Positions 51,201-64,000 of a stretch of DNA of 64,000 nucleotides are shown here, one piece after another. How positions within the stretch are numbered: position 1 is the first letter of the stretch; each line of letters begins with the position of its first letter. A model generated the notes under the pieces. That model searched no databases. It saw only the letters and a list, made by a program, of their open reading frames with translations, and was not told where the DNA came from. The stretch comes from a virus: positions 1 through 64,000 of the IMG/VR virus record IMGVR_UViG_3300005253_000050; one strand, written 5' to 3'. The position numbers and the translations under genes are program-made.

Positions 51201-51509
51201 CAGCGAGGCGGGCTACGAGGTGATCGAGCTGCCCGAGGCCGTTTACGGCGCGCTGAGCCCAGAAACCAGATGACTCCCGCGGAGCACATCCATGGATCCC
51301 TGACCGCGGCCCTGGCCCTCAGGCTCGCCGGCAAGCCTGGCCGTTCGGCCGCCTTCGTGCTCGCTGCCGCCGTCCCGGTGCTCACGGGCCGGATCGATTG
51401 GGCTGGGGTCCAGGTGGTGGCCTCGGGGTGGCTATCCATGGCCACAGAAAACGTGATAACCTCGGGGCATGCCCAGGCCCCGATCAAAGACCCCCCGCGG
51501 CCACGCTGA
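48290..51509 (+). CDS. array of small hypothetical genes preceding TerL
   Basis: Coupled short ORFs (e.g. 48491-48946, 49704-49988, 49989-50306, 50484-50753, 50953-51273). Confidence 0.5.
49176..49694 (+). CDS. YkgJ-like Cys-cluster protein
   Basis: CTGHCC...CPHFD...CLIY...R..MCRTHP. Confidence 0.65.
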   Translation: MTTALAIRPTPPVIEFRRCTGHCCDPVTIQAGPYYHLRRVFDGMVGDVEWIADNLIYVGWRSPANGGWVERGNHEYSCPHFDKRDRRCLIYGQGKRSLMCRTHPNYGRGPWKVCLHEGCTRRTMVLDMNTRGMPRWLFPDLWNEDWDRWVAFEEDVCRPEWGADAMPPGHDE

Positions 51510-53169
51510 TATTTCCCTGCCGACCGTCCCCCCGCCCCAGCTCGCGGACGCCAAGAAGCTGAAAGAGCAGCACGTCGAGGCGGCGCGGGAGGACATCAAC
51601 GCCTTCATCGAGTACGTCTTCGAGCACTACGACAAGAACACGAAAAAGACACGGCCGTTTGTCCAGGGGTGGATGCATAAGCAGTGGCAGGCACTGATGT
51701 CTAACCACTCGAGATTGTTGATAATTGCGCCGAGGAGCCACGGGAAAACCTCGCAATGTATCGCCCGGGCCCTCTACGAGCTCGGTCGCGATCCCAACCA
51801 CCTGATCAAAATCATTTCGCAGAGTGATGCCAAGGCCGTCAAGCGCCTCTCGATGATCCGCGCGCATATGAAGGACAACAAGCGGCTGCACGACGTGTTC
51901 CCGCACCTGAAGCTCGACGAGCTCACCGAGGCCAACAAGCACCAGGTCACCGTGAAGAGATCCGCGCGGATGGCCGACCCGTCCATCGAGGCCCTCGGAA
52001 TCACGAGCAGCGCCTCCGGCGACCGAGCCACGATCCTCCTGGCCGACGACGTGGTGGACCGGCGCAACTCGATCACATTGCCGAAAGTTCGCCAGCAGAT
52101 CAAGGACGCCTGGGACGACTGGGTCAACTTATTGGGAGGCGACGGCGGACAGATTTGGTACATCGCCACCCTCTGGCACCAGGCCGCGCTGACCCACGAC
52201 CTCATGGCCAATCCCGAGTGGGCGGTGGCGTGGTACGAGATTACTAAGGCGATGGGGTGCTACGTCAAGATCCCCGACGGGCGCGAGCACAAGGCCGACT
52301 ATCCGCTCTGGGGGTGGGATCCACAGTGCAAGGTGCACCCGAGCCCCGATGAGTCCGTCCCGGTCGAACCGCCCCCCGAGCCAGCGATGAACAGCGTGAC
52401 GTGCCACTGCGGCCCGTGGACGACGCGCAAGCTGCAGCGTCGCCGCCGCGAGCTGGGCCCGCGGAAGTTCGCCCGCGGGTTTTCCAACCGGCCGATGTCT
52501 GAGGGCGAGTTGAAGATCGACCCTGACTGGATTCGTACCTACACCGAAGAGCCAGGCGACGACTGGTTCTGGTACGTCAGCCTCGACACCGCGGAATCCC
52601 AGGGCCAGCAGGCCGCTTGGACGGGGGTCGTGATTGCGGCAGTGAACCCGGCGAACGGGCACCTGAGAATTTGGGACGCGTTCCACGTCAAGATGAAGTT
52701 TCCCGACCGAGTGAAGCTGGTGATCGATCTCTACAACGAGCACCTTCCGGAGCTGGTCATAATCGAGCGCGCCGGCGGCGGCATCTCGTTGTCGGAGCAT
52801 CTCATCGAAAACACCTCGATCCCGATCTTCGGGATGCCGACGAAGACCAAAGGCGGCCACTCGAAAGATGAGCGCCTGGAGTCGACCACGCCCAGGTTGG
52901 CCAACGGGCAGATCACATTCGCCCCCGAGCTGGATCCCACGGAGGGCCTCGTCGGCCTCGACCGCGGCGACCTGCTCTCGGAGCTGCTCGAGTGGGGATC
53001 CTACCCCACGAAGGACATCGCGGACGCGTTCGCGCATTTGGCGCGCTACTGTGCTATCAAACACCCATGCGCGTGGGACGAGGGCCCCGACGGAGTGCAC
53101 GCCGGGATGAGCCTGGCGAGCCGGCGGGCGCGCGATGACGACTGCATGACCGTTACCCTGATTGGCTGA
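51469..53169 (+). CDS. terL: terminase large subunit
   Basis: APRSHGKT Walker A, LLADDVV Walker B, IATLWH, nuclease SLDTA...IIE...DIADA. Confidence 0.92.
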   Translation: MPRPRSKTPRGHADISLPTVPPPQLADAKKLKEQHVEAAREDINAFIEYVFEHYDKNTKKTRPFVQGWMHKQWQALMSNHSRLLIIAPRSHGKTSQCIARALYELGRDPNHLIKIISQSDAKAVKRLSMIRAHMKDNKRLHDVFPHLKLDELTEANKHQVTVKRSARMADPSIEALGITSSASGDRATILLADDVVDRRNSITLPKVRQQIKDAWDDWVNLLGGDGGQIWYIATLWHQAALTHDLMANPEWAVAWYEITKAMGCYVKIPDGREHKADYPLWGWDPQCKVHPSPDESVPVEPPPEPAMNSVTCHCGPWTTRKLQRRRRELGPRKFARGFSNRPMSEGELKIDPDWIRTYTEEPGDDWFWYVSLDTAESQGQQAAWTGVVIAAVNPANGHLRIWDAFHVKMKFPDRVKLVIDLYNEHLPELVIIERAGGGISLSEHLIENTSIPIFGMPTKTKGGHSKDERLESTTPRLANGQITFAPELDPTEGLVGLDRGDLLSELLEWGSYPTKDIADAFAHLARYCAIKHPCAWDEGPDGVHAGMSLASRRARDDDCMTVTLIG

Positions 53170-53509: not shown

Positions 53510-53995
53510 GTGGAGCACAGCGTGACAGGAAAGATAAACCTCCTGGCGACCATAGCGCCGTCGTCGGTGAGGGAGATCAGGGCGACCAGACGGATGAACC
53601 AGCTGAAGGGCCAGGCGAGCGATACGCTCGAGGGGCTGCTCCGGCCGCTGGTGCTGGTGGTGGACGACGACAAGGAGTTCCGCGGCATCCTTCATGCCCA
53701 CCTCCAGGCATCGGAGCTATGCAGGGCGGTGGCGGTCGCGTCGGCGACAGAGGCGCTGGGCGTGCTCACGCGCGACCCGGTGCAGCTGGTGGTGACCGAC
53801 TTCCACATGCCGGTGATGGATGGGGTGGCGCTCCTGCGCGTGGTCAAGAAACGGTGGCCGGGGGTGATCCGGGTGCTGATGTCTGGGAGTCACGCCTCGG
53901 CGGTCCCAAGGAACGAGCTGATGGCGAAGTTCCTCCGGAAGCACGAGAGCCTGATGGTGATGACGGACGCCTTGCTAGGGCTGATCCCGATCTGA
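53510..53995 (+). CDS. response-regulator receiver domain protein
   Basis: VLVVDDD, VVTDFHMPVMDG, LMSG, FLRK. Confidence 0.88.
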   Translation: MEHSVTGKINLLATIAPSSVREIRATRRMNQLKGQASDTLEGLLRPLVLVVDDDKEFRGILHAHLQASELCRAVAVASATEALGVLTRDPVQLVVTDFHMPVMDGVALLRVVKKRWPGVIRVLMSGSHASAVPRNELMAKFLRKHESLMVMTDALLGLIPI

Positions 53996-56534: not shown

Positions 56535-58337
56535 ATGGCCGCTCAGACGCCCGCACCGCCCGAATCAACAGAACTCACCGTGACGGTGATCAAGGCCGCC
56601 CCGAAGATCGATGTTGACTTCGGTCGGGCCCGGGAGGACGCCGACGAGGTGCAATGGGGACTGAGTTTCCCGCTCCCGCGTCCCTTAGATGTAGATAAAC
56701 TCCTGCTGCTCTTCTCGGTTTCGGATACGCTCCAGCAATGCGTCGACGCAATGGTGTCAAATATTGACGCCAGGGGATGGGCTCCCGAGCCTGTCCTGGA
56801 CCTCGATGCAGACGATGCCGCGGAGCAGGTAGCGACGGCGATGTATCTGGAGCGCCGGTCTCGATCCCCGGCCGCCTCAATGCCGACAGCAGAGGAGGTG
56901 GAGGAGACGCTGAAGGAGTGGCGGCGCGAGGCCCGTCTGGAGAAGGCGCTGCTCAAGCTGCGCGTCAAGGCCCTGTGCTACGAGAGCTCTTTCTCGGAGC
57001 TCCGCCAGCAGAAGCGTCGAGACCGAGAGGTGATCGGGTGGGGGGCCTGGGAAATAATCCGCAGCGACAGCGGCGATATCGTCCGCGCGAAGCACGTCCC
57101 GTCGCGCACACTCTGGCTGACTACGATCGATGACGAGGTCACCGCGACGCCGGCCTGGCTCCCGACGAGCGATGTCAGCCGCGAGGCCGTTATCGTCGAC
57201 CGGCGCTTCCGGCGGGTGATCCAGATCGACAGCGCTGGCGCCTATACCTATTTCAAGTGGTTCGGTGATCCGCGGATCATCTCGGCCAAAAGCGGGAAGC
57301 CCTACGACTCTGAGAAGGACCTCCTCGAGGCTGATGGAGAAGACCACGAGGCCGGCGAGGTCAAGGGTGAGCCCCCGAAGCCGGCGACGGAGATCTTGTG
57401 GTTCGGGACGTACTACCCGGAGGGCGCCTACCCGCAGCCACGGTGGCACGGGCTGATCCCGAACATCGTCGGCAGCCGCGAGGCGTCAGAGGACAACGCC
57501 CGGTACCTGTCGAACTCCGCCATCCCCCAGGGGCTGCTCCTGGTCTCGGACGGGCGGGTCGGCCCCTCGTCGAAGGGCAGCCTGTCGACGTTCTTCGAAT
57601 CGAACGAGGGGAATGCGCGGCAGAAGATCGCCGTGGTGGAGGCCACCACCCCGCGCGAAAACGCGATCCTTCCTGGGTCCGGCCGCGTGCAGCTCGAGTG
57701 GGTGTCGCTGCGGCAGGCCCAGCAGGACGACCTCACCTTCAGCCAGTACATCATGATGACCTCCGACCAGGTGGGCGAGGCCTTCCGCCTGCCGTCGCTG
57801 CTGCGCGGCCGGGTGAAGGACCTGAATAAAGCCAACGCCGTCGCCGTGCTGGAGTTCGCCGAAGACCAGGTGTTCGCCCCGGAGCGCCAGTCCTTCGACG
57901 ACCTCATCAATGACACCCTGGTCGCCAACTGGGGGATCCGGTTCTGGCGCTTCAAGTCCCTCGGCTCTCGCAAGCGGGATCCGGAGTCCATCGCCAAAAT
58001 CGCCGAGGCGTTCCTCCGCGCCGGCGTGGTCACCCCCGCCGAGCTGCGGGATCTTGCCGAGCAGCTGCTGGGTGTCGACCTCCCGAGCTCGGCCAGCGAC
58101 TGGCAGCACATCACTCAGCTGATGGTCACCGCCGGCCACATCCCCCCCTCGGCCAAGCCGCCGGAAACGGTGAGCCAGCCAGTCGGGCCGCCGGCGGATC
58201 CGGATGAATTGCAGGAGCCGCCGACCGGGTCCGCCGAGGACATCGCGAAACGGATCCTCAAGATGGAGGCCTTCCTTGCCACTGCCCGCCAGGCGGAGGC
58301 GATGGCCACGATGCCGGAGCCCGATGGAACTTCTTGA
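56535..58337 (+). CDS. phage portal protein
   Basis: GWGAWEIIR, HVPSRT, YPQPRW, AFRLP..L, VVTPAELR; lies between TerL and MuF. Confidence 0.88.
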   Translation: MAAQTPAPPESTELTVTVIKAAPKIDVDFGRAREDADEVQWGLSFPLPRPLDVDKLLLLFSVSDTLQQCVDAMVSNIDARGWAPEPVLDLDADDAAEQVATAMYLERRSRSPAASMPTAEEVEETLKEWRREARLEKALLKLRVKALCYESSFSELRQQKRRDREVIGWGAWEIIRSDSGDIVRAKHVPSRTLWLTTIDDEVTATPAWLPTSDVSREAVIVDRRFRRVIQIDSAGAYTYFKWFGDPRIISAKSGKPYDSEKDLLEADGEDHEAGEVKGEPPKPATEILWFGTYYPEGAYPQPRWHGLIPNIVGSREASEDNARYLSNSAIPQGLLLVSDGRVGPSSKGSLSTFFESNEGNARQKIAVVEATTPRENAILPGSGRVQLEWVSLRQAQQDDLTFSQYIMMTSDQVGEAFRLPSLLRGRVKDLNKANAVAVLEFAEDQVFAPERQSFDDLINDTLVANWGIRFWRFKSLGSRKRDPESIAKIAEAFLRAGVVTPAELRDLAEQLLGVDLPSSASDWQHITQLMVTAGHIPPSAKPPETVSQPVGPPADPDELQEPPTGSAEDIAKRILKMEAFLATARQAEAMATMPEPDGTS

Positions 58338-59694
58338 GCTCCCCAGCCGCGAGGTGCTGGTGCAGCGAGGGCCAAGCGTTGGCTTCGTCGGCCCGTCCAT
58401 GGCCCGCGTCCGCATCCCCAAGGCATCCCAGGCCCAGGGTTACGTGCTGCTCCACCGCGGCGCTCACGGCGCCTGGCAGACGTTCCGCCTGACGTCGCGG
58501 AAGGAGACAGCCGCCAGGAAGCGGGCCGCCCGGGTGGCGCGGCTCATTGGCCGAAAGATTATTCTCGGTGAGCTCGTCCAGGTGGCCGGGGAGACGCAGG
58601 TGATCCGATCCATCGCCACCTACGAAACGATGTCCAAGGCCGAGCTATTCGCCCGAGCTGCAGCTGCGGCCGGCGAGGTGGCGGACATCTACAAGGCCAA
58701 GGATCCGGACCCGTACAACCCCCGGCAGTTCGACAAGATGACGGACGCCCTCGCGCGCGACCTTAACAGGGTGGCCAAGCCGGCGTTTGTAGCCACGGTC
58801 GAGAAGGCCGTGACGTCGTCCAAGATCGACTGGGCCACGGCCACCGAGAAGCAGATGGAGGCCTTCAGCAAAAAGCTCGCCGCAACTCTTGGCGTCTCTG
58901 CCGCTGCGGTCTGGAAATCGATCCGCCCCACGGTGGTTGACTCCTCCGTGACGATGGCCACCGAATCCCGCGCAGCCTTCGTGAAATCGAACAATCTCAC
59001 GGTGGACAGGGTCATCTCGCTCCAGGACAAGGCGGCCGTGACCAGGTCGGCGATGACGAACGCGCACTACGTGCGAGAGTTCGCGACCGGGCAGATGAGC
59101 CCGAGCCTGAGTTCGCAGGCCCGGGTGATCGTCCAGTCTGGAATTAGCAAAGGCGAGAGTTCCCGGATGATCGGGAAGGAGCTCCACCGGGTTCTCGGCC
59201 GGGCGGCCGGCGGCCAGACCGAGGCCTACTTCCGAATGGCTGCGAGCGCGATCAACGCCAGGTCCCGGGAGTTCTCGTCGTTGCGATCCATGCAGGACGC
59301 GGGGATCGATAAATACGAATGGAGCTCGGTGCTCGATGAGATGACCACGGAGACCTGCCGCTTCCTCGACGGCCAGGTATTCTCTGTTCAGGGCGCACTC
59401 GACCGATACAAAGCCGCCGACGCTCTAGAAGACCCCACAGACATCAAATACGAGATGCCGTGGTTCTATGACAAGCCGATCCGCGGCGGCGAGCACGACG
59501 GCAAGATGGGAATCTTTATGAACCAGCGCGGGGGGATGCAGCGTGTCGCTGTGGTTGAAAAAGGTGGCTTCGGGAAACGGGACGCGATCGGCACCTACTC
59601 CAACACCAAAAGCTCAAAGGCGTTGGAGGGAATGGGGATGCCTGCATGTCCAGGGCACAGTTTGTGACGCAGCACTACCATCCCGGTAGATTAA
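58324..59694 (+). CDS. MuF / SPP1 gp7-like minor head protein, ending at TGA 59667 or reading through to TAA 59694
   Basis: GIDKYEWSSVLDEMTTETCRFLDG; C-terminal PGHSL-TGA-RSTTIPVD matches HxxCRS; start codon uncertain. Confidence 0.85.
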
Positions 59695-59712: not shown

Positions 59713-60051
59713 ATGAGCAACATAATCCAGCCCGGACTCTCGCACCTGATCAGCACCATGGATCTCGCCCGCATCGAGGACGCTGTCCACAAGGCGGTGA
59801 TGCGCTCGGCCGAACTGCGTGGACAAAAGATGTACACCGAGGGCAAGATCTCGCACAGCGAGTACGACCGCCGCGCGAAGTACTGCATCGAGCTCGCGCT
59901 GCGCTGGCGCAAGGAGCGTCGGTTCGCGCTCGAGCAAATCGGCGACGCGCTCAAGACCGCCCTGATCAGCTGGATCGACGGCGATGAATACGAGCCCCGC
60001 GACGGAATGTGGGCCGACCCCGACCAGAACAACCCGGCAGGTACATTATGA
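59713..60051 (+). CDS. hypothetical head-module protein
   Basis: GAGG RBS; ATGA coupling to the next gene. Confidence 0.7.
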   Translation: MSNIIQPGLSHLISTMDLARIEDAVHKAVMRSAELRGQKMYTEGKISHSEYDRRAKYCIELALRWRKERRFALEQIGDALKTALISWIDGDEYEPRDGMWADPDQNNPAGTL

Positions 60052-63000
60052 GAATCCTGAAGTCCCTCGACCCCCACTACCTGGTGCATCGGCTCGCCTC
60101 CGATCAGATCGTTGGCGTGCTCGCTGACCGCGACCTCGGCGCCCTGGCCGATGACGACATGATGCTGGCAGACGGTGAGGTGGACCCCGACTGTGAGCCT
60201 CTCGCCCATGGCGTGGTGCGGCTCCGGAAGGGCGTGCGGTTTGCCTCTGGCGAGGCGGCCGTCGCCAAGCTCGGCGAGAAGCTCGACCCGTTCATGGCCC
60301 GGACTTTCGGTGCGTCCGCTGACCCGGTGTGGTTCCACCCGCTCAAGTCCGTGGACGCCTGGGAAGAGGCCGCCGTGGTGAAGGGGCTGGAGGTGCCAGT
60401 TCGAATCCTGAAGGCCGCCGAGGTGATTCCGGATGAGGGCGCGCTGAGCGAGCTGAGTTCTGCTGGCCTTGGCGAGGTGGCGAAGCTACTGGACTCGAAT
60501 CCAGAGAGTGAGGGCGCCGAGGAGTTGGCGGTGATCGTGAAGGCCGAGTACGATCGCCGCGGACTCGAGCCCGATGAGTCGCTGCTGATCTTCAAGGGCC
60601 TCTGGGGTTACCCCGCTGGGAAAGCCAGACTGTCGAAGCGATTGGTTGAGATGATGCCAACGCACAAGGTCTACGTTGAACCATTTGTCGGGAGTGGCGC
60701 GGTGCTATTCGCGAAAGAGAAAGTAGGCACCGAGGTTGTGAACGACACCGACCCAGCTGTGGCCGAGGCCTGGCAGGTTCTTTCTGAGTTGACCGCGCAA
60801 GATCTAAAGCGCCTCTGTGGGATGAACTGGACCGGCGATCGTGACACCTTCACGAGAATGAAAAAAGAGACCGGCGGTGACGACGTAGTCAAGCTACATC
60901 GGTTTTTCTATCTCTCTAAATTTGCTTATGGTCGGTGGCGAGGGACTGGATTTTCTCCTGAAATGCAAGGACATACGGTCACAATGGCCCGAATGCTGGA
61001 AAAGAACGCTCCCCGTGCCCAAGGCGTGGTCGCTCTTCATGGTGACTACGAGGCCGTGTGTCGTAAATACGACGGCCCAGACACGTTACACTTCCTCGAT
61101 CCTCCGTACGCTGGATATGCCTCCGCTGTGGGAGAAAAGAACTTCGACGAGGAGCGTTTTTTTAAGATGCTCAAGGAACTCAAAGGGAAGTGGATCGTCA
61201 CATACGGGGTCAAGGGCAAGCTACCCAAGATGCTCCGTGATTCCGGATTTACTGTAAAGAAGGTCACCACCCATCGTTCGATCCGGACGAGCGTCGCCTC
61301 CACGAATCCGTCTGCGGTGCTTGATCAACTGATCGCATACAACTTCGATCCGAATGCCAAGGCCGAAGACCCAGCGCTTGCCCCGACAGAAGAGCCAGCC
61401 GAGGCGCCTGTCGAAGCGGAAAAAAAAAACCTAAATTCCCCGGACGCTGAGAAGCAGGAGGGCTCGCCGGTCCTCTGTTTCTATCACGGCGATCTGGACG
61501 GCGTGGCGTCCGCCGCGGTTGTTCTTCAGGCCCACCCGGCCGCCGAGCTGGCGAGCATCAACTACGGGCAGGAGTTCCCATGGGACACCATCAAGGACCG
61601 CGAGACGGTCTACATGGTGGACTTCGGGATGCAGCCGTTCGAGGAGATGGTCAAGCTCAAGGCCGAACTCGACGAGATGGGGACCAGGTTCGTGTGGATC
61701 GACCACCACATCACCGCGCTCGAGGCCGCAGAGAAGGCGGGCTTCGAGGTCGACGGTCTCCGCGAGATCGGCCAGGCCGGCTGCGAGCTGACATGGAAGT
61801 TCATCCACCCCGACGACCCCATGCCGGAGGTGGTTCGCCTCGCTGGTCGATTCGACGTCTGGGACCACGAGGACCCGAACGTCCTGCCGGTGCACTACGC
61901 GATGGAGGCAATCCCCGAAGCCAACGACCCGAGCAGCGAGTGGTGGGCCGAGTGGCTCAAGAAGGGCGAGGGGGACTTCGCTGAGCTCGTCGCCCAGGGC
62001 AAGGCGATCCAGGGCTGGCTCGAAGAGTTCAGCGCCGGCCGGATGAGGTTCTCGTCCTTCGATGTGGACTTCGCTGGGCTCAAATGCGTGGCGGCCTGCA
62101 CCTCTCTCCCTGGGTCCATTCAATTCGAGTCGGTTGGCAAGGAGCACGACGCCGCGATCTCGTTCTGCTTTTCGCCGAGAAACCAGTGGAACGTCTCGAT
62201 GTATTCCATCAAGGAAGGCGTCGACGTCGGGAAGGTCTGCATGGACAACGGCGGCGGTGGTCACGCTGGCGCCGGCGGGTTCCAGTGCACGGAGCTGCCG
62301 TTCGACCTCCCGGCCTCCACCAAGAAGGCTTACGACCTCCGCGAGCCCCTCGCCGCCTACGCTCACGACGCCTGGTCTCGGTGGATGGATCATCTCTTCG
62401 AGCAGGCATCTCCCGACGGGACGATGGCGCCCGAAGACGTGGAGCGATGGAAGCGCCTGATCACGACCAAGTACGCCGACCTCACCGAGGATGAAAAGGA
62501 GTCCGATCGCCTCGAGGCGGACCGGTTGCTGGCGGTGATGAGCGGGCGGGACGACGAGGTCGAGAAGGCCGCAGTGGCACCGCTTGCCCCGGCCCCGGCG
62601 CTCGCCGTTTTCAAGCCGACCGAGGAGAACTCCTTCGACGACGTGAAGGAGCTGCTCGAGAAGTTCGGGACGGACGAATCACTCGGCGCCGGTGTCGGGG
62701 TCGGGCCGAAGTGGAACGGCCAGCTCGCCATCGTTCACAGCGTACCTGACGGCGTGTCGATCCACTACGAAGGCAACCCCACCGAGCAGGCTCCGAACCT
62801 CAAGGCCATCGCCGCGTCGGCCGCCAAATTCGACGACGGGTATGCTCTCATCGGCGAGGTGGTGGAGGCTGACATCGGCGCGGTGTTCATGGCGCGCGAC
62901 GTGCTCCACTGGGCGGGTGTCGACCACTCGGCCGAGCCGTGGTCTGCGCGACAGAAGATCCTAGACCAGGCGGTCCCGCAGGCGACCGCCGCCATCGCCC

Positions 63001-63905
63001 CCGCCCCCGCTCGGCTGGTTCATTCAGCCGACACTTTGAAGGCCGCGATCACCTGGGCGGCCGAGGTTCCGGGATCCGTCGGGGCGGTGATCACCCCCGC
63101 TGATTCAGTCGCGACGCCAGGTGGATCCGCACCTCAGATTGCCGAGGTTCGGACCCCTCGGATCGTCAACGCGATGGTGGTCGGAGCGGATTCGAATCCG
63201 GATGGATCCAACGTCTATCAGTGCGCCGTCGGGCCGCTTTCGGATTCGGAGTCAGATCGTCTTAAAGAGGTGGTCGAGGTCGGTGGGCGGAACTATGCAA
63301 TCGTCGGATCTGTGTGTACACCTTCTGTGAATGCCTCTGTGGGCGATACACTAAGAGTGGAAGTGGGCGAAATATTGGTGGTTGACAGCGAAGATTCGGC
63401 CGCGATAGGATGGGACTCATCAAAGGTACTCGAGCGGGTGCACGTAAAACCCGCGACGGTATCCGAAGTTCGAGCACTGGCGCGACCACATGAGATCCAG
63501 AAACTCTGCAAAATCCTCAAGCGCGATTCGGAGCGGCATTACATCCTCAGTGTTGTGCTCGAGCCGAACGATGGCAAGGGCGAAGCACCACTGGATCCCG
63601 ACGCCCACAACGATATTTACTCCGACGACGAGATCTGGGATGCCTGCGTGTATTGGTACGAGCAGGGCGCCGGCCTTGGCGTCATGCATGAGCGCGGAGC
63701 GACCACCTCAGAGCTGCTCCCGGTCCACAATATCATCGCCCCGGTCGACATGGAGATCGGCGGCGAGTTTGTGCGGGCTGGTTCGTGGCTCATTGGATCT
63801 CTCGTCCTATCTGCCGACCTCTGGCAGCGGATTGAATCTGGGGAGCTCAACGCGTGGAGCGTTGATGGACGAGCGCTTCGGCGCCCCGAGGCAATAGCAG
63901 CTTGA
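60048..63905 (+). CDS. multidomain protein: D12-class DNA adenine methylase + DHH phosphoesterase + RyR-like + DNA-ligase-like + XkdF-like prohead protease
   Basis: GYPAGK/YVEPFVGSG/LDPPY; YHGDLDG/IDHH/GGGGHAGAGGF; AHDAW...YADLTEDEKESDR; PKWNG..LIGEV..ARDVL; VVLEP..DAHND..VMH..GSWL..GELNAWSVDG. Confidence 0.85.
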   Translation: MRILKSLDPHYLVHRLASDQIVGVLADRDLGALADDDMMLADGEVDPDCEPLAHGVVRLRKGVRFASGEAAVAKLGEKLDPFMARTFGASADPVWFHPLKSVDAWEEAAVVKGLEVPVRILKAAEVIPDEGALSELSSAGLGEVAKLLDSNPESEGAEELAVIVKAEYDRRGLEPDESLLIFKGLWGYPAGKARLSKRLVEMMPTHKVYVEPFVGSGAVLFAKEKVGTEVVNDTDPAVAEAWQVLSELTAQDLKRLCGMNWTGDRDTFTRMKKETGGDDVVKLHRFFYLSKFAYGRWRGTGFSPEMQGHTVTMARMLEKNAPRAQGVVALHGDYEAVCRKYDGPDTLHFLDPPYAGYASAVGEKNFDEERFFKMLKELKGKWIVTYGVKGKLPKMLRDSGFTVKKVTTHRSIRTSVASTNPSAVLDQLIAYNFDPNAKAEDPALAPTEEPAEAPVEAEKKNLNSPDAEKQEGSPVLCFYHGDLDGVASAAVVLQAHPAAELASINYGQEFPWDTIKDRETVYMVDFGMQPFEEMVKLKAELDEMGTRFVWIDHHITALEAAEKAGFEVDGLREIGQAGCELTWKFIHPDDPMPEVVRLAGRFDVWDHEDPNVLPVHYAMEAIPEANDPSSEWWAEWLKKGEGDFAELVAQGKAIQGWLEEFSAGRMRFSSFDVDFAGLKCVAACTSLPGSIQFESVGKEHDAAISFCFSPRNQWNVSMYSIKEGVDVGKVCMDNGGGGHAGAGGFQCTELPFDLPASTKKAYDLREPLAAYAHDAWSRWMDHLFEQASPDGTMAPEDVERWKRLITTKYADLTEDEKESDRLEADRLLAVMSGRDDEVEKAAVAPLAPAPALAVFKPTEENSFDDVKELLEKFGTDESLGAGVGVGPKWNGQLAIVHSVPDGVSIHYEGNPTEQAPNLKAIAASAAKFDDGYALIGEVVEADIGAVFMARDVLHWAGVDHSAEPWSARQKILDQAVPQATAAIAPAPARLVHSADTLKAAITWAAEVPGSVGAVITPADSVATPGGSAPQIAEVRTPRIVNAMVVGADSNPDGSNVYQCAVGPLSDSESDRLKEVVEVGGRNYAIVGSVCTPSVNASVGDTLRVEVGEILVVDSEDSAAIGWDSSKVLERVHVKPATVSEVRALARPHEIQKLCKILKRDSERHYILSVVLEPNDGKGEAPLDPDAHNDIYSDDEIWDACVYWYEQGAGLGVMHERGATTSELLPVHNIIAPVDMEIGGEFVRAGSWLIGSLVLSADLWQRIESGELNAWSVDGRALRRPEAIAA

Positions 63906-64000
63906 CTTCGTTCAGTAACTTTTTTCTCAGCGCCGCACAGAAAGCCAAAGACCCGGATGAGAAAGACAAGATCTTCAGGCTGCGACGGATTGCCATTGAT

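What the first reader, a model, noticed from the sequence alone, without database searches (positions are those of the whole stretch)
60048..63905. Prohead protease fused to methylase, DHH phosphoesterase, RyR-like and ligase-like domains: a candidate capsid-cargo polyprotein
Seen: one 1285-aa ORF sits in the protease slot after portal and MuF. It carries an unknown N-domain, a Dam-like methylase (~60600-61350), DHH/DHHA1 (~61470-62305), RyR-like (~62335-62540), ligase-like with PKWNG (KxDG-like) plus an OB-like part (~62575-63480), and an XkdF-like protease (~63505-63890). The methylase block looks more AT-rich than its neighbours, suggesting a swapped module. Inference: fusion to the protease loads DNA-protecting or counter-defence enzymes into the head for packaging-coupled or co-injected action, such as methylation against restriction, nick repair, or breakdown of oligonucleotide signals.
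Basis: partly seen in the sequence, partly recalled or inferred. Interest (0 to 1): 0.85.

Follow-up and report, generated by a model that had tools for sequence, protein, structure and literature searches.

The report
Enzyme train fused to phage head protease
An uncultured marine-sediment phage makes its only head-maturation protease as the tail end of a 1285-residue protein that also carries a DNA methylase, a small-nucleotide phosphodiesterase, a dead DNA-ligase fold and two smaller modules. The likely purpose is to build these modules into the virus head; the general idea was predicted in 2017 but has never been tested.

Summary
Window 60048-63905 (+) is one intact 1285-aa ORF in a complete 93.6-kb viral genome. 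It lies between portal/MuF and a scaffold-like gene plus the major capsid gene.

Modules, N to C:
- an ASCH/PUA-like domain, found almost only in this kind of protein
- a Dam-class methyltransferase with intact motifs
- a compact DHH/DHHA1 phosphoesterase with intact motifs
- a sub-threshold RyR-like module
- an ATP-dependent DNA-ligase fold (Z 18) that has lost motifs IV and V and the motif I arginine, so it is probably inactive
- the genome's only XkdF prohead protease, with all invariant residues present

In 79 related IMG/VR head modules the XkdF ORF keeps its slot while varying from 121 to 1920 aa, and XkdF lies at or near the C-terminus (within ~25 aa in most, ~150 aa in two). Half of 56 non-redundant relatives carry Dam methylases.

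New here: the downstream scaffold gene starts with a conserved peptide. A complex model docks that peptide on the protease, giving a plausible loading route.

Capsid loading is inferred, and nick repair is unlikely for this copy. The closest known class is the polyvalent proteins (Iyer 2017).

This scan has already found the same theme on at least ten other genomes. I class it as a new variant of a known kind.

The parts
60048..63905 (+). Whole 1285-aa polyprotein ORF (the stop is TGA at 63903-63905)
   Evidence: full-length homologues P0003-P0006
60048..60587 (+). N-domain, res 1-180: an ASCH/PUA-like beta-barrel core (res 1-~105) followed by a helical hairpin
   Evidence: AF2 model pLDDT 81. 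The top 8 VIA matches are all ASCH family: 5guq_A Z 8.2, rmsd 4.2, 107 aligned; YqfB 9kyf_A Z 7.6. Foldseek agrees weakly. Only 15 relatives among 1.84 billion representatives; 13 of them sit inside XkdF-ended proteins, P0137 and P0140 may be fragments
60588..61382 (+). Dam-class (D12) N6-adenine DNA methyltransferase, res 181-445; FVGSG at 213, DPPY at 351; low-GC3 block
   Evidence: (7m6b_B 2.4e-13)
61383..61463 (+). Pro/Glu/Ala/Lys-rich linker, res 446-472
61464..62303 (+). Compact DHH/DHHA1 phosphoesterase, res 473-752; DLDG at 482, DHH at 552, GGGH at 736
   Evidence: (all 26 family-invariant residues present)
62304..62558 (+). RyR-like small helical module, res 753-837 (sub-threshold)
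   Evidence: Pfam RyR 20.1 bits against a cut-off of 27.4. The same weak match appears in P0003, P0006 and Ma-LMM01 gp044. 45% identical to the stand-alone 80-aa gp044
62559..62570 (+). VEKA linker motif, res 838-841: candidate protease cut site (Lys|Ala)
   Evidence: [VIL]EK[AKE] occurs 9 times in five close relatives, 8 of them in inter-module linkers
62619..63158 (+). ATP-dependent DNA-ligase nucleotidyltransferase fold, degenerate. Motif I is PKWNGQL (887-893); motif IV is GSVGAVIT (1009-1016); motif V is IAEVR (1031-1035)
63159..63458 (+). OB-fold domain of the ligase module
   Evidence: model residues 200-300
63486..63902 (+). XkdF (PF14550) prohead protease domain, res 1147-1285; E1172, D1185, H1214, S1271 and G1274 are all present
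   Evidence: T4 gp21 5jbl_A Z 7.0, rmsd 3.5, 113 aligned
63902..64000 (+). Start of the 274-aa scaffold-like gene (it runs to genome position 64726). Its TTG start overlaps the TGA stop. Residues 22-51 carry the conserved docking peptide
59713..60051 (+). Conserved 112-aa ORF of unknown function; its stop overlaps the polyprotein's ATG (ATGA)
   Evidence: 88% identical in L004, 32% in L005
58204..59667 (+). MuF-like minor head protein
56535..58337 (+). Portal protein

Best explanation
This is a phage polyvalent protein anchored on the prohead protease.

Shown:
- The C-terminal XkdF domain is the genome's only prohead-protease candidate among the three protease families searched (XkdF, S78, ClpP). 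It sits in the protease slot and keeps every invariant residue.

Inferred:
- The XkdF domain binds the conserved N-terminal peptide of the scaffold-like protein encoded next door. The whole 141-kDa protein is thereby co-assembled inside the procapsid.
- The protease then cuts inter-module linkers, with VEK|A at 838-841 as one candidate site, and frees the modules.
- The intact Dam-class methylase and the DHH/DHHA1 phosphoesterase are the working cargo. They are placed next to the DNA during packaging or delivered with it into the next cell. There they would protect against restriction and degrade short nucleotide signals or nanoRNA/pAp-type substrates.
- The ligase NTase-OB module is a catalytically dead remnant, kept as a structural or DNA-binding spacer next to the protease.
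- The ASCH-like N-domain and the RyR-like module are accessory nucleic-acid or ligand binders.
- Modules are swapped between relatives, and the methylase here is a recent replacement.
For: Slot and uniqueness:
- The order is TerL, portal, MuF, this ORF, scaffold-like gene, MCP.
- The 93.6-kb genome has one XkdF and no S78 or ClpP.
- The protease residues E1172, D1185, H1214, S1271 and G1274 are invariant across 56 relatives and present here.
- The fold resembles T4 gp21: 5jbl_A Z 7.0, rmsd 3.5, 113 aligned.

Comparative series:
- Of 80 IMG/VR loci, 79 share the homologous head module.
- The XkdF ORF ranges from 121 to 1920 aa, with XkdF at or near the C-terminus: within ~25 aa in most, ~150 aa from the end in L023 and L054.
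- Pfam tally of 56 non-redundant relatives: D12 methylase 28, InPase 5, ligase 5, DHH 2, 2H 1. This repertoire is typical of polyvalent proteins.

Docking:
- 68 of 77 downstream genes begin with the peptide RLxD..VEEVSLVDRAANKRRFLIVKR. None of the 80 XkdF ORFs contains it.
- In the cultured Bacillus phage BMBtp14, the peptide, XkdF and the scaffold form one protein.
- Complex model: ipSAE 0.74, best of 3 controls 0.01. That mark was reached by 58 of 80 solved complexes and 2 of 110 mismatched pairs. The runs agree in at least 78% of contacts, and the partner's pLDDT is at least 52.
- The modelled contacts include S1271 and the 1184-1191 and 1209-1214 loops.
- This pass may reflect an ancestral within-chain contact of a split gene.

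Cargo state:
- FVGSG and DPPY are intact, as are DxD, DHH and GGGH.
- The ligase fold scores Z 18, but motifs IV and V are lost.

Module swapping:
- Per-module identity and order differ among relatives.
- The methylase has GC3 0.62 against 0.82-0.88 in its flanks.
Against: - There are no proteomic or expression data; presence in virions and injection are wholly inferred.
- Prohead proteases and scaffolds usually leave the head before DNA enters, so the cargo could be expelled too.
- A methylase needs SAM, which a capsid does not hold.
- The h-x-K|[ASG] motif is not enriched in this ORF overall: 8 observed against 4.7 expected, P 0.10. Only two junctions carry it.
- The XkdF match to a solved protease is modest (Z 7).
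- The docking model may only recall a within-chain contact of the unsplit ancestor.
Confidence: 0.55

Rival explanations
1. The gene is a polyprotein expression device only. The protease frees the modules in the producer cell, in the cytoplasm or at the assembly site. The methylase then modifies progeny DNA before or during packaging, and the DHH enzyme acts on host nucleotides late in infection. Nothing but DNA is delivered to the next host.
For: The methylase needs SAM, which is available only in a cell. It is the genome's only D12 methylase, so progeny DNA must be modified somewhere. Late co-expression with the head genes follows from the gene order. Proteases and scaffolds normally leave the head.
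Against: XkdF lies at or near the C-terminus next to the scaffold gene in 79 loci, and the modelled docking on the scaffold points to the procapsid rather than to free cytoplasmic processing. The same domain repertoire is tied to MuF and portal fusions in polyvalent proteins, which are read as packaged.
Confidence: 0.27
2. The role is mainly structural. The modules, some of them dead like the ligase, serve as internal head or core mass, or as DNA-binding proteins that organise or cap the packaged genome. Catalysis is secondary.
For: The ligase NTase-OB module is conserved next to XkdF yet has lost its catalytic motifs in this clade. The ASCH, OB and ligase folds all bind nucleic acids.
Against: The methylase and DHH modules keep every catalytic motif under evident selection: 26 DHH-family invariant positions are all present. 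Relatives with bare 121-340-aa XkdF ORFs use the same head module, so the extra mass is not needed for assembly.
Confidence: 0.12
3. The long ORF is an artefact: an assembly chimera or fused pseudogenes.
For: It comes from a metagenome-derived contig, and composition varies between modules.
Against: Two runs from two samples give contigs that span the ORF with no differences. Relatives on other contigs keep the same module order at 61-66% identity. There is no internal stop.
Confidence: 0.01

Closest known systems
Polyvalent proteins of phages and conjugative elements (Iyer, Burroughs, Anand, de Souza, Aravind 2017, PMC5512222)
   Same: Both have many enzymatic domains in one phage polypeptide, encoded beside the portal and MuF. 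N6A methylase is a hub domain, and InPase and 2H occur in relatives. The paper notes that an assemblin-like peptidase, where present, is always C-terminal and probably processes the protein during assembly.
   Different: The paper's main text does not mention XkdF, DHH, RyR or ASCH. Here the anchor is the phage's own and only prohead protease, not MuF or the portal. A scaffold docking peptide is proposed here.
XkdF-type prohead protease-scaffold proteins (PF14550; for example Bacillus phage BMBtp14 gp58, PBSX XkdF)
   Same: The protease domain and the slot before the major capsid gene are the same, as is the conserved peptide.
   Different: In BMBtp14 the peptide, protease and scaffold form one 403-aa chain. 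Here the protease ends a 1285-aa cargo protein, and the peptide plus scaffold form the next gene.
Phage P1 Dar system (DarB methyltransferase/helicase packed in the head) and T4 internal proteins with capsid-targeting sequences cut by gp21
   Same: In both, enzymes or anti-restriction proteins are loaded into the head through the assembly pathway and trimmed by the head protease. This rests on my own knowledge; the papers are listed (PMC9024508, PMC12810830, PMC9026906).
   Different: Those cargoes are separate proteins with short targeting tags or helper proteins. They are not covalent fusions to the protease.
Stand-alone compact DHH phosphoesterases (labelled by JGI as NrnB/cAMP/cGMP phosphodiesterase) and NrnA, Rv2837c and TM1595
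   Same: The catalytic motifs are the same, and identity to ~280-aa stand-alone proteins is 35-50%.
   Different: The match to solved NrnA-type enzymes is only distant (E 3e-6 to 5e-5, over the DHHA1 end). The substrate is unknown, and here the domain is fused.

Membership tests
Polyvalent proteins (Iyer 2017) | Two or more unrelated effector or enzyme domains in one polypeptide of a phage or conjugative element | tested here: met
   Six modules
Polyvalent proteins (Iyer 2017) | Encoded with the portal-terminase packaging module | tested here: met
   TerL, portal and MuF lie upstream
Polyvalent proteins (Iyer 2017) | C-terminal assemblin-like peptidase in the subclass that has one | tested here: inconclusive
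   XkdF is C-terminal here. Its fold match to T4 gp21 (5jbl_A) is Z 7.0, rmsd 3.5, 113 aligned. Whether the paper's assemblin-like set includes XkdF could not be checked
Polyvalent proteins (Iyer 2017) | Packaged in the virion and delivered to the host | not testable with these tools
   Needs virion proteomics
XkdF prohead protease (PF14550) | Profile score above the curated cut-off | tested here: met
   61.3 bits against 24; 66.4 bits on the genome
XkdF prohead protease (PF14550) | Family-invariant Glu, Asp, His, Ser and Gly | tested here: met
   E1172, D1185, H1214, S1271 and G1274
XkdF prohead protease (PF14550) | Proteolytic activity on head proteins | not testable with these tools
   Needs biochemistry
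D12/Dam N6-adenine DNA methyltransferase | Profile above cut-off, plus the FxGxG SAM motif and the DPPY catalytic motif | tested here: met
   58.5 bits against 22; FVGSG at 213, DPPY at 351. The TIGR00571 subfamily cut-off is not reached: 54.6 against 114.85
DHH/DHHA1 phosphoesterase | Motifs DxD, D, DHH and D, plus GGGH | tested here: met
   All are present and invariant in a 30-sequence family alignment. phrog_4771 scores 1e-34. Pfam DHH scores 26.2 bits against a cut-off of 28.1
ATP-dependent DNA ligase | NTase plus OB fold | tested here: met
   3gde_A Z 18.4, 262 aligned; 3l2p_A Z 18.0, rmsd 5.7, 274 aligned. Foldseek E 1e-12
ATP-dependent DNA ligase | Catalytic motifs I (KxDGxR), III, IV (EGxxxK) and V (LxKxK) | tested here: not met
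   K888 and the motif III Glu are kept. The motif I Arg is lost. Motif IV reads GSVGAVIT and motif V reads IAEVR, whereas relatives P0016, P0015 and P0007 keep them
RyR domain (PF02026) | Profile score above the curated cut-off | tested here: inconclusive
   20.1 bits against 27.4. Four homologues give the same weak match over profile positions 16-83
ASCH / PUA-like superfamily | ASCH beta-barrel fold | tested here: inconclusive
   The top 8 VIA matches are all ASCH, at Z 6.0-8.2. Foldseek gives E 7e-3 at best. There is no sequence-profile match

The most novel reading that the evidence does not exclude
In this large phage lineage the XkdF protease-scaffold protein has been split. The protease domain ends the upstream ORF, while its partner peptide heads the scaffold gene. 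The two would reassociate in trans, which makes the protease's free N-terminus a natural plug-in site where any enzyme module can be added and carried into the procapsid. That would be an evolved, modular capsid-loading platform, here carrying methylase, DHH, ASCH and RyR modules, with VxK|A linkers as release sites.
Probability: 0.4. Interest if true: 0.7.

Novelty: new variant of a known kind. Interest (0 to 1): 0.58.

Why it matters
If the cargo really rides in the head, phages have a simple genetic way to deliver arbitrary enzymes with their DNA: fuse them in front of the head protease. This would give a defined handle, the protease plus the scaffold peptide, for testing the 2017 polyvalent-protein hypothesis. 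It would also be a handle for engineering cargo-loaded phage capsids.

The DHH module adds a candidate class of delivered enzymes that degrade signalling nucleotides. The dead ligase shows that not every module in such proteins should be read as an active enzyme.

Tried and rejected
Gene contexts of the P-numbered homologues were therefore taken from IMG/VR loci instead.
- A single-protein scan of viral contigs found only one relative. An alignment query was needed.
- ESM Atlas gave nothing for the N-domain.
- For the RyR-like module, phmmer against PDB found nothing relevant, and a search among 46-149-aa proteins found nothing.
- No cultured phage record covers 80% or more of this protein, or of a 428-aa methylase-XkdF relative.
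- The Pakpunavirus 'DNA methyltransferase' ORF54 turned out to be a bare 156-aa XkdF domain.
- No RNA holder is listed for this DNA.
- A frameshift fusion to the scaffold gene is rejected. The downstream frame is open for only 36 nt upstream of its start, I saw no slippery heptamer, and many relatives have a 30-190-nt gap.
- The broad h-x-K|[ASG] motif is not enriched in this ORF: 8 observed against 4.7 expected, P 0.10.
- GATC is 2.1-fold over-represented, which says little about methylase specificity.
- The 2017 paper's supplements are not held.


Full report
WHAT IS THERE

Window 60048-63905 (+) is a single 1285-aa ORF without internal stops. The ATG at 60048 is supported by homologues that begin at the same residues. 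The window is the first 64 kb of a 93,600-bp IMG/VR virus record with direct terminal repeats, rated complete. It comes from marine-sediment metagenomes.

Upstream lie a large terminase (51469-53169), a portal (56535-58337), a MuF-like protein (58204-59667) and a conserved 112-aa ORF whose stop overlaps the ATG. Downstream come a 274-aa Glu/Ala/Pro/Lys-rich scaffold-like gene, whose TTG start overlaps the TGA stop, and then the major capsid gene.

MODULES

- Res 1-180, N-domain. The AF2 model has pLDDT 81. The eight best structural matches are all ASCH-family PUA-like barrels: ZmASCH 5guq_A at Z 8.2, rmsd 4.2, 107 aligned, and E. coli YqfB at Z 7.6. Foldseek agrees weakly. These Z values are near the tool's noise level, so I call the domain ASCH-like, not a member. 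HMMER against 1.84 billion representatives found only 15 relatives; 13 sit inside proteins that end in XkdF (P0137 and P0140 may be fragments), sometimes at internal positions.
- Res 181-445, Dam-class methyltransferase. Pfam gives 58.5 bits against a cut-off of 22; FVGSG and DPPY are present.
- Res 473-752, compact DHH/DHHA1 phosphoesterase. phrog_4771 scores 1e-34. All 26 positions that are invariant in a 30-sequence family alignment are kept, including DxD, DHH and GGGH. Its closest relatives are ~280-aa stand-alone proteins at 35-50% identity. Solved NrnA-type enzymes match only distantly.
- Res 753-837, RyR-like. The Pfam match is below threshold here and in three homologues. One of these is the stand-alone 80-aa gp044 of Microcystis phage Ma-LMM01, which is 45% identical.
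- Res ~848-1137, ligase fold. This region is homologous at 29-39% identity to regions that pass PF01068 in relatives. The AF2 model (pLDDT 84.9) matches ATP-dependent DNA ligases at Z 18 and Foldseek E 1e-12. In this clade the motif I Arg, the motif IV Glu and Lys, and both motif V Lys are gone, while more distant relatives keep them. I therefore read it as an inactive ligase remnant.
- Res 1147-1285, XkdF protease. Pfam gives 61.3 bits against a cut-off of 24. All residues that are invariant in 56 relatives are present. The first non-ligase structural match is the T4 head protease gp21, at Z 7.0.

IS IT REAL

Logan contigs of two runs from two samples span the ORF with no differences. They may be the source samples, so this is a consistency check only. 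Relatives on other contigs keep the module order at 61-66% identity.

The methylase block has GC3 0.62, against 0.82-0.88 for its neighbours and 0.80-0.90 for the other head genes. The dip is milder in the nearest relative. This fits a replaced module. A second dip lies at the OB/XkdF junction.

COMPARATIVE PICTURE

The genome has one XkdF domain and no S78 or ClpP protease. It has no other D12 methylase or ligase.

An alignment-based scan of IMG/VR gave 80 loci. In 79 of them the same head module (portal, MuF, XkdF ORF, scaffold-like gene, MCP) is recognisable. The XkdF ORF ranges from 121 to 1920 aa, with XkdF at or near its C-terminus: within ~25 aa in most loci, ~150 aa from the end in L023 and L054.

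Of 56 non-redundant ORFs, 28 carry D12 methylases, often two or three of them. Five carry InPase, 5 a ligase, 2 DHH and 1 a 2H phosphoesterase. Simple DHH-XkdF fusions also exist. Modules change place and number between close relatives. The nearest relative has an extra ~90-aa module between the methylase and DHH that this protein lacks.

HOW IT MIGHT LOAD

The gene after the XkdF ORF begins, in 68 of 77 loci, with a conserved ~25-aa peptide. The consensus is RLxD..VEEVSLVDRAANKRRFLIVKR; here the matching stretch is residues 25-51 of the 274-aa protein. None of the 80 XkdF ORFs contains it.

In the cultured Bacillus phage BMBtp14, the same peptide, the XkdF domain and a scaffold-like tail form one 403-aa protein. 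Pakpunaviruses have the split form without cargo.

A complex model of the XkdF domain with the peptide gave ipSAE 0.74, against 0.01 for the best of three controls. That mark was reached by 58 of 80 solved complexes and 2 of 110 mismatched pairs. The runs agree in at least 78% of contacts, and the partner's pLDDT is at least 52. The peptide lies against the last strand of the domain and touches S1271 and the loops that hold D1185 and H1214.

Because this is in effect a split gene, the pass may only reflect an ancestral within-chain contact. Even so, it implies that the two proteins associate. That would take the polyprotein into the procapsid with the scaffold.

CUT SITES

[VIL]EK[AKE] occurs nine times in the five closest proteins. 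Eight of the nine lie in inter-module linkers, which make up about 7% of the total length. These sites are not independent, and linkers are compositionally biased. Here only VEKA at 838-841 fits, plus IFK|G at the N/methylase junction. The broader motif is not enriched in this ORF. I treat these as candidate sites only.

COMPARISON AND VERDICT

The closest described class is the polyvalent proteins (PMC5512222). That paper notes C-terminal assemblin-like peptidases in a few such proteins and predicts a processing role. Its text does not mention XkdF, DHH, RyR or ASCH. Functional analogues are P1 Dar and the T4 internal proteins (plus my own knowledge).

This scan has reported XkdF-anchored enzyme trains on at least ten other genomes, including dead ligases and Lys|Ala cut sites. 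The theme is therefore recurrent, and this is one more member, here with DHH, RyR-like and ASCH-like modules.

Noticed in passing
window 63902-64000, continuing as L002:103-927: The scaffold-like gene starts with a conserved ~25-aa peptide, present in 68 of 77 related loci. In unsplit XkdF proteins such as BMBtp14 gp58 the same peptide precedes the protease domain. A complex model docks it on the XkdF domain.
   Followed up: yes
window 63200-63560: There is a second GC3 dip (0.52-0.60, against 0.8-0.9 elsewhere) across the end of the OB domain and the start of XkdF.
   Followed up: partly
L004:2249-2575: Relatives carry a ~90-aa module (WST..NDLPDS.FL..GG.KD..GKT.PR.LR.FPVRD..GK.D..H.RNA) between other modules. 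It is absent from this protein and has no Pfam match. It may be the cargo header peptide noted elsewhere in the scan.
   Followed up: partly
L088:4902-5372 (Pseudomonas phage C2-10_Ab02 ORF54): In many Pakpunavirus records a bare 156-aa XkdF domain is annotated 'DNA methyltransferase'. This looks like annotation carried over from methylase-XkdF fusions. The next gene starts with a variant of the docking peptide.
   Followed up: partly
window 59713-60051: A 112-aa ORF of unknown function lies between MuF and the polyprotein. It is conserved in relatives (88% and 32% identity), and its stop overlaps the polyprotein's start codon.
   Followed up: no
window 58204-59667: The MuF-like protein holds 8 hydrophobic-x-Lys-[Ala/Ser/Gly] motifs against 1.9 expected from shuffles (0 of 2000 shuffles reach 8). 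These are possibly protease cut sites.
   Followed up: partly
window 53510-53995: A 161-aa protein with a response-regulator receiver domain (Pfam 3e-14) sits between the terminase and portal genes of the phage.
   Followed up: no
L090:1498-1740 (Microcystis phage Ma-LMM01 gp044): A stand-alone 80-aa protein is 45% identical to the RyR-like module, so this module also exists as a free phage protein.
   Followed up: partly
whole genome (window plus L002 and L003): GATC and TCGA are about 2.1-2.2-fold over-represented. CTAG is about 4-fold under-represented.
   Followed up: no
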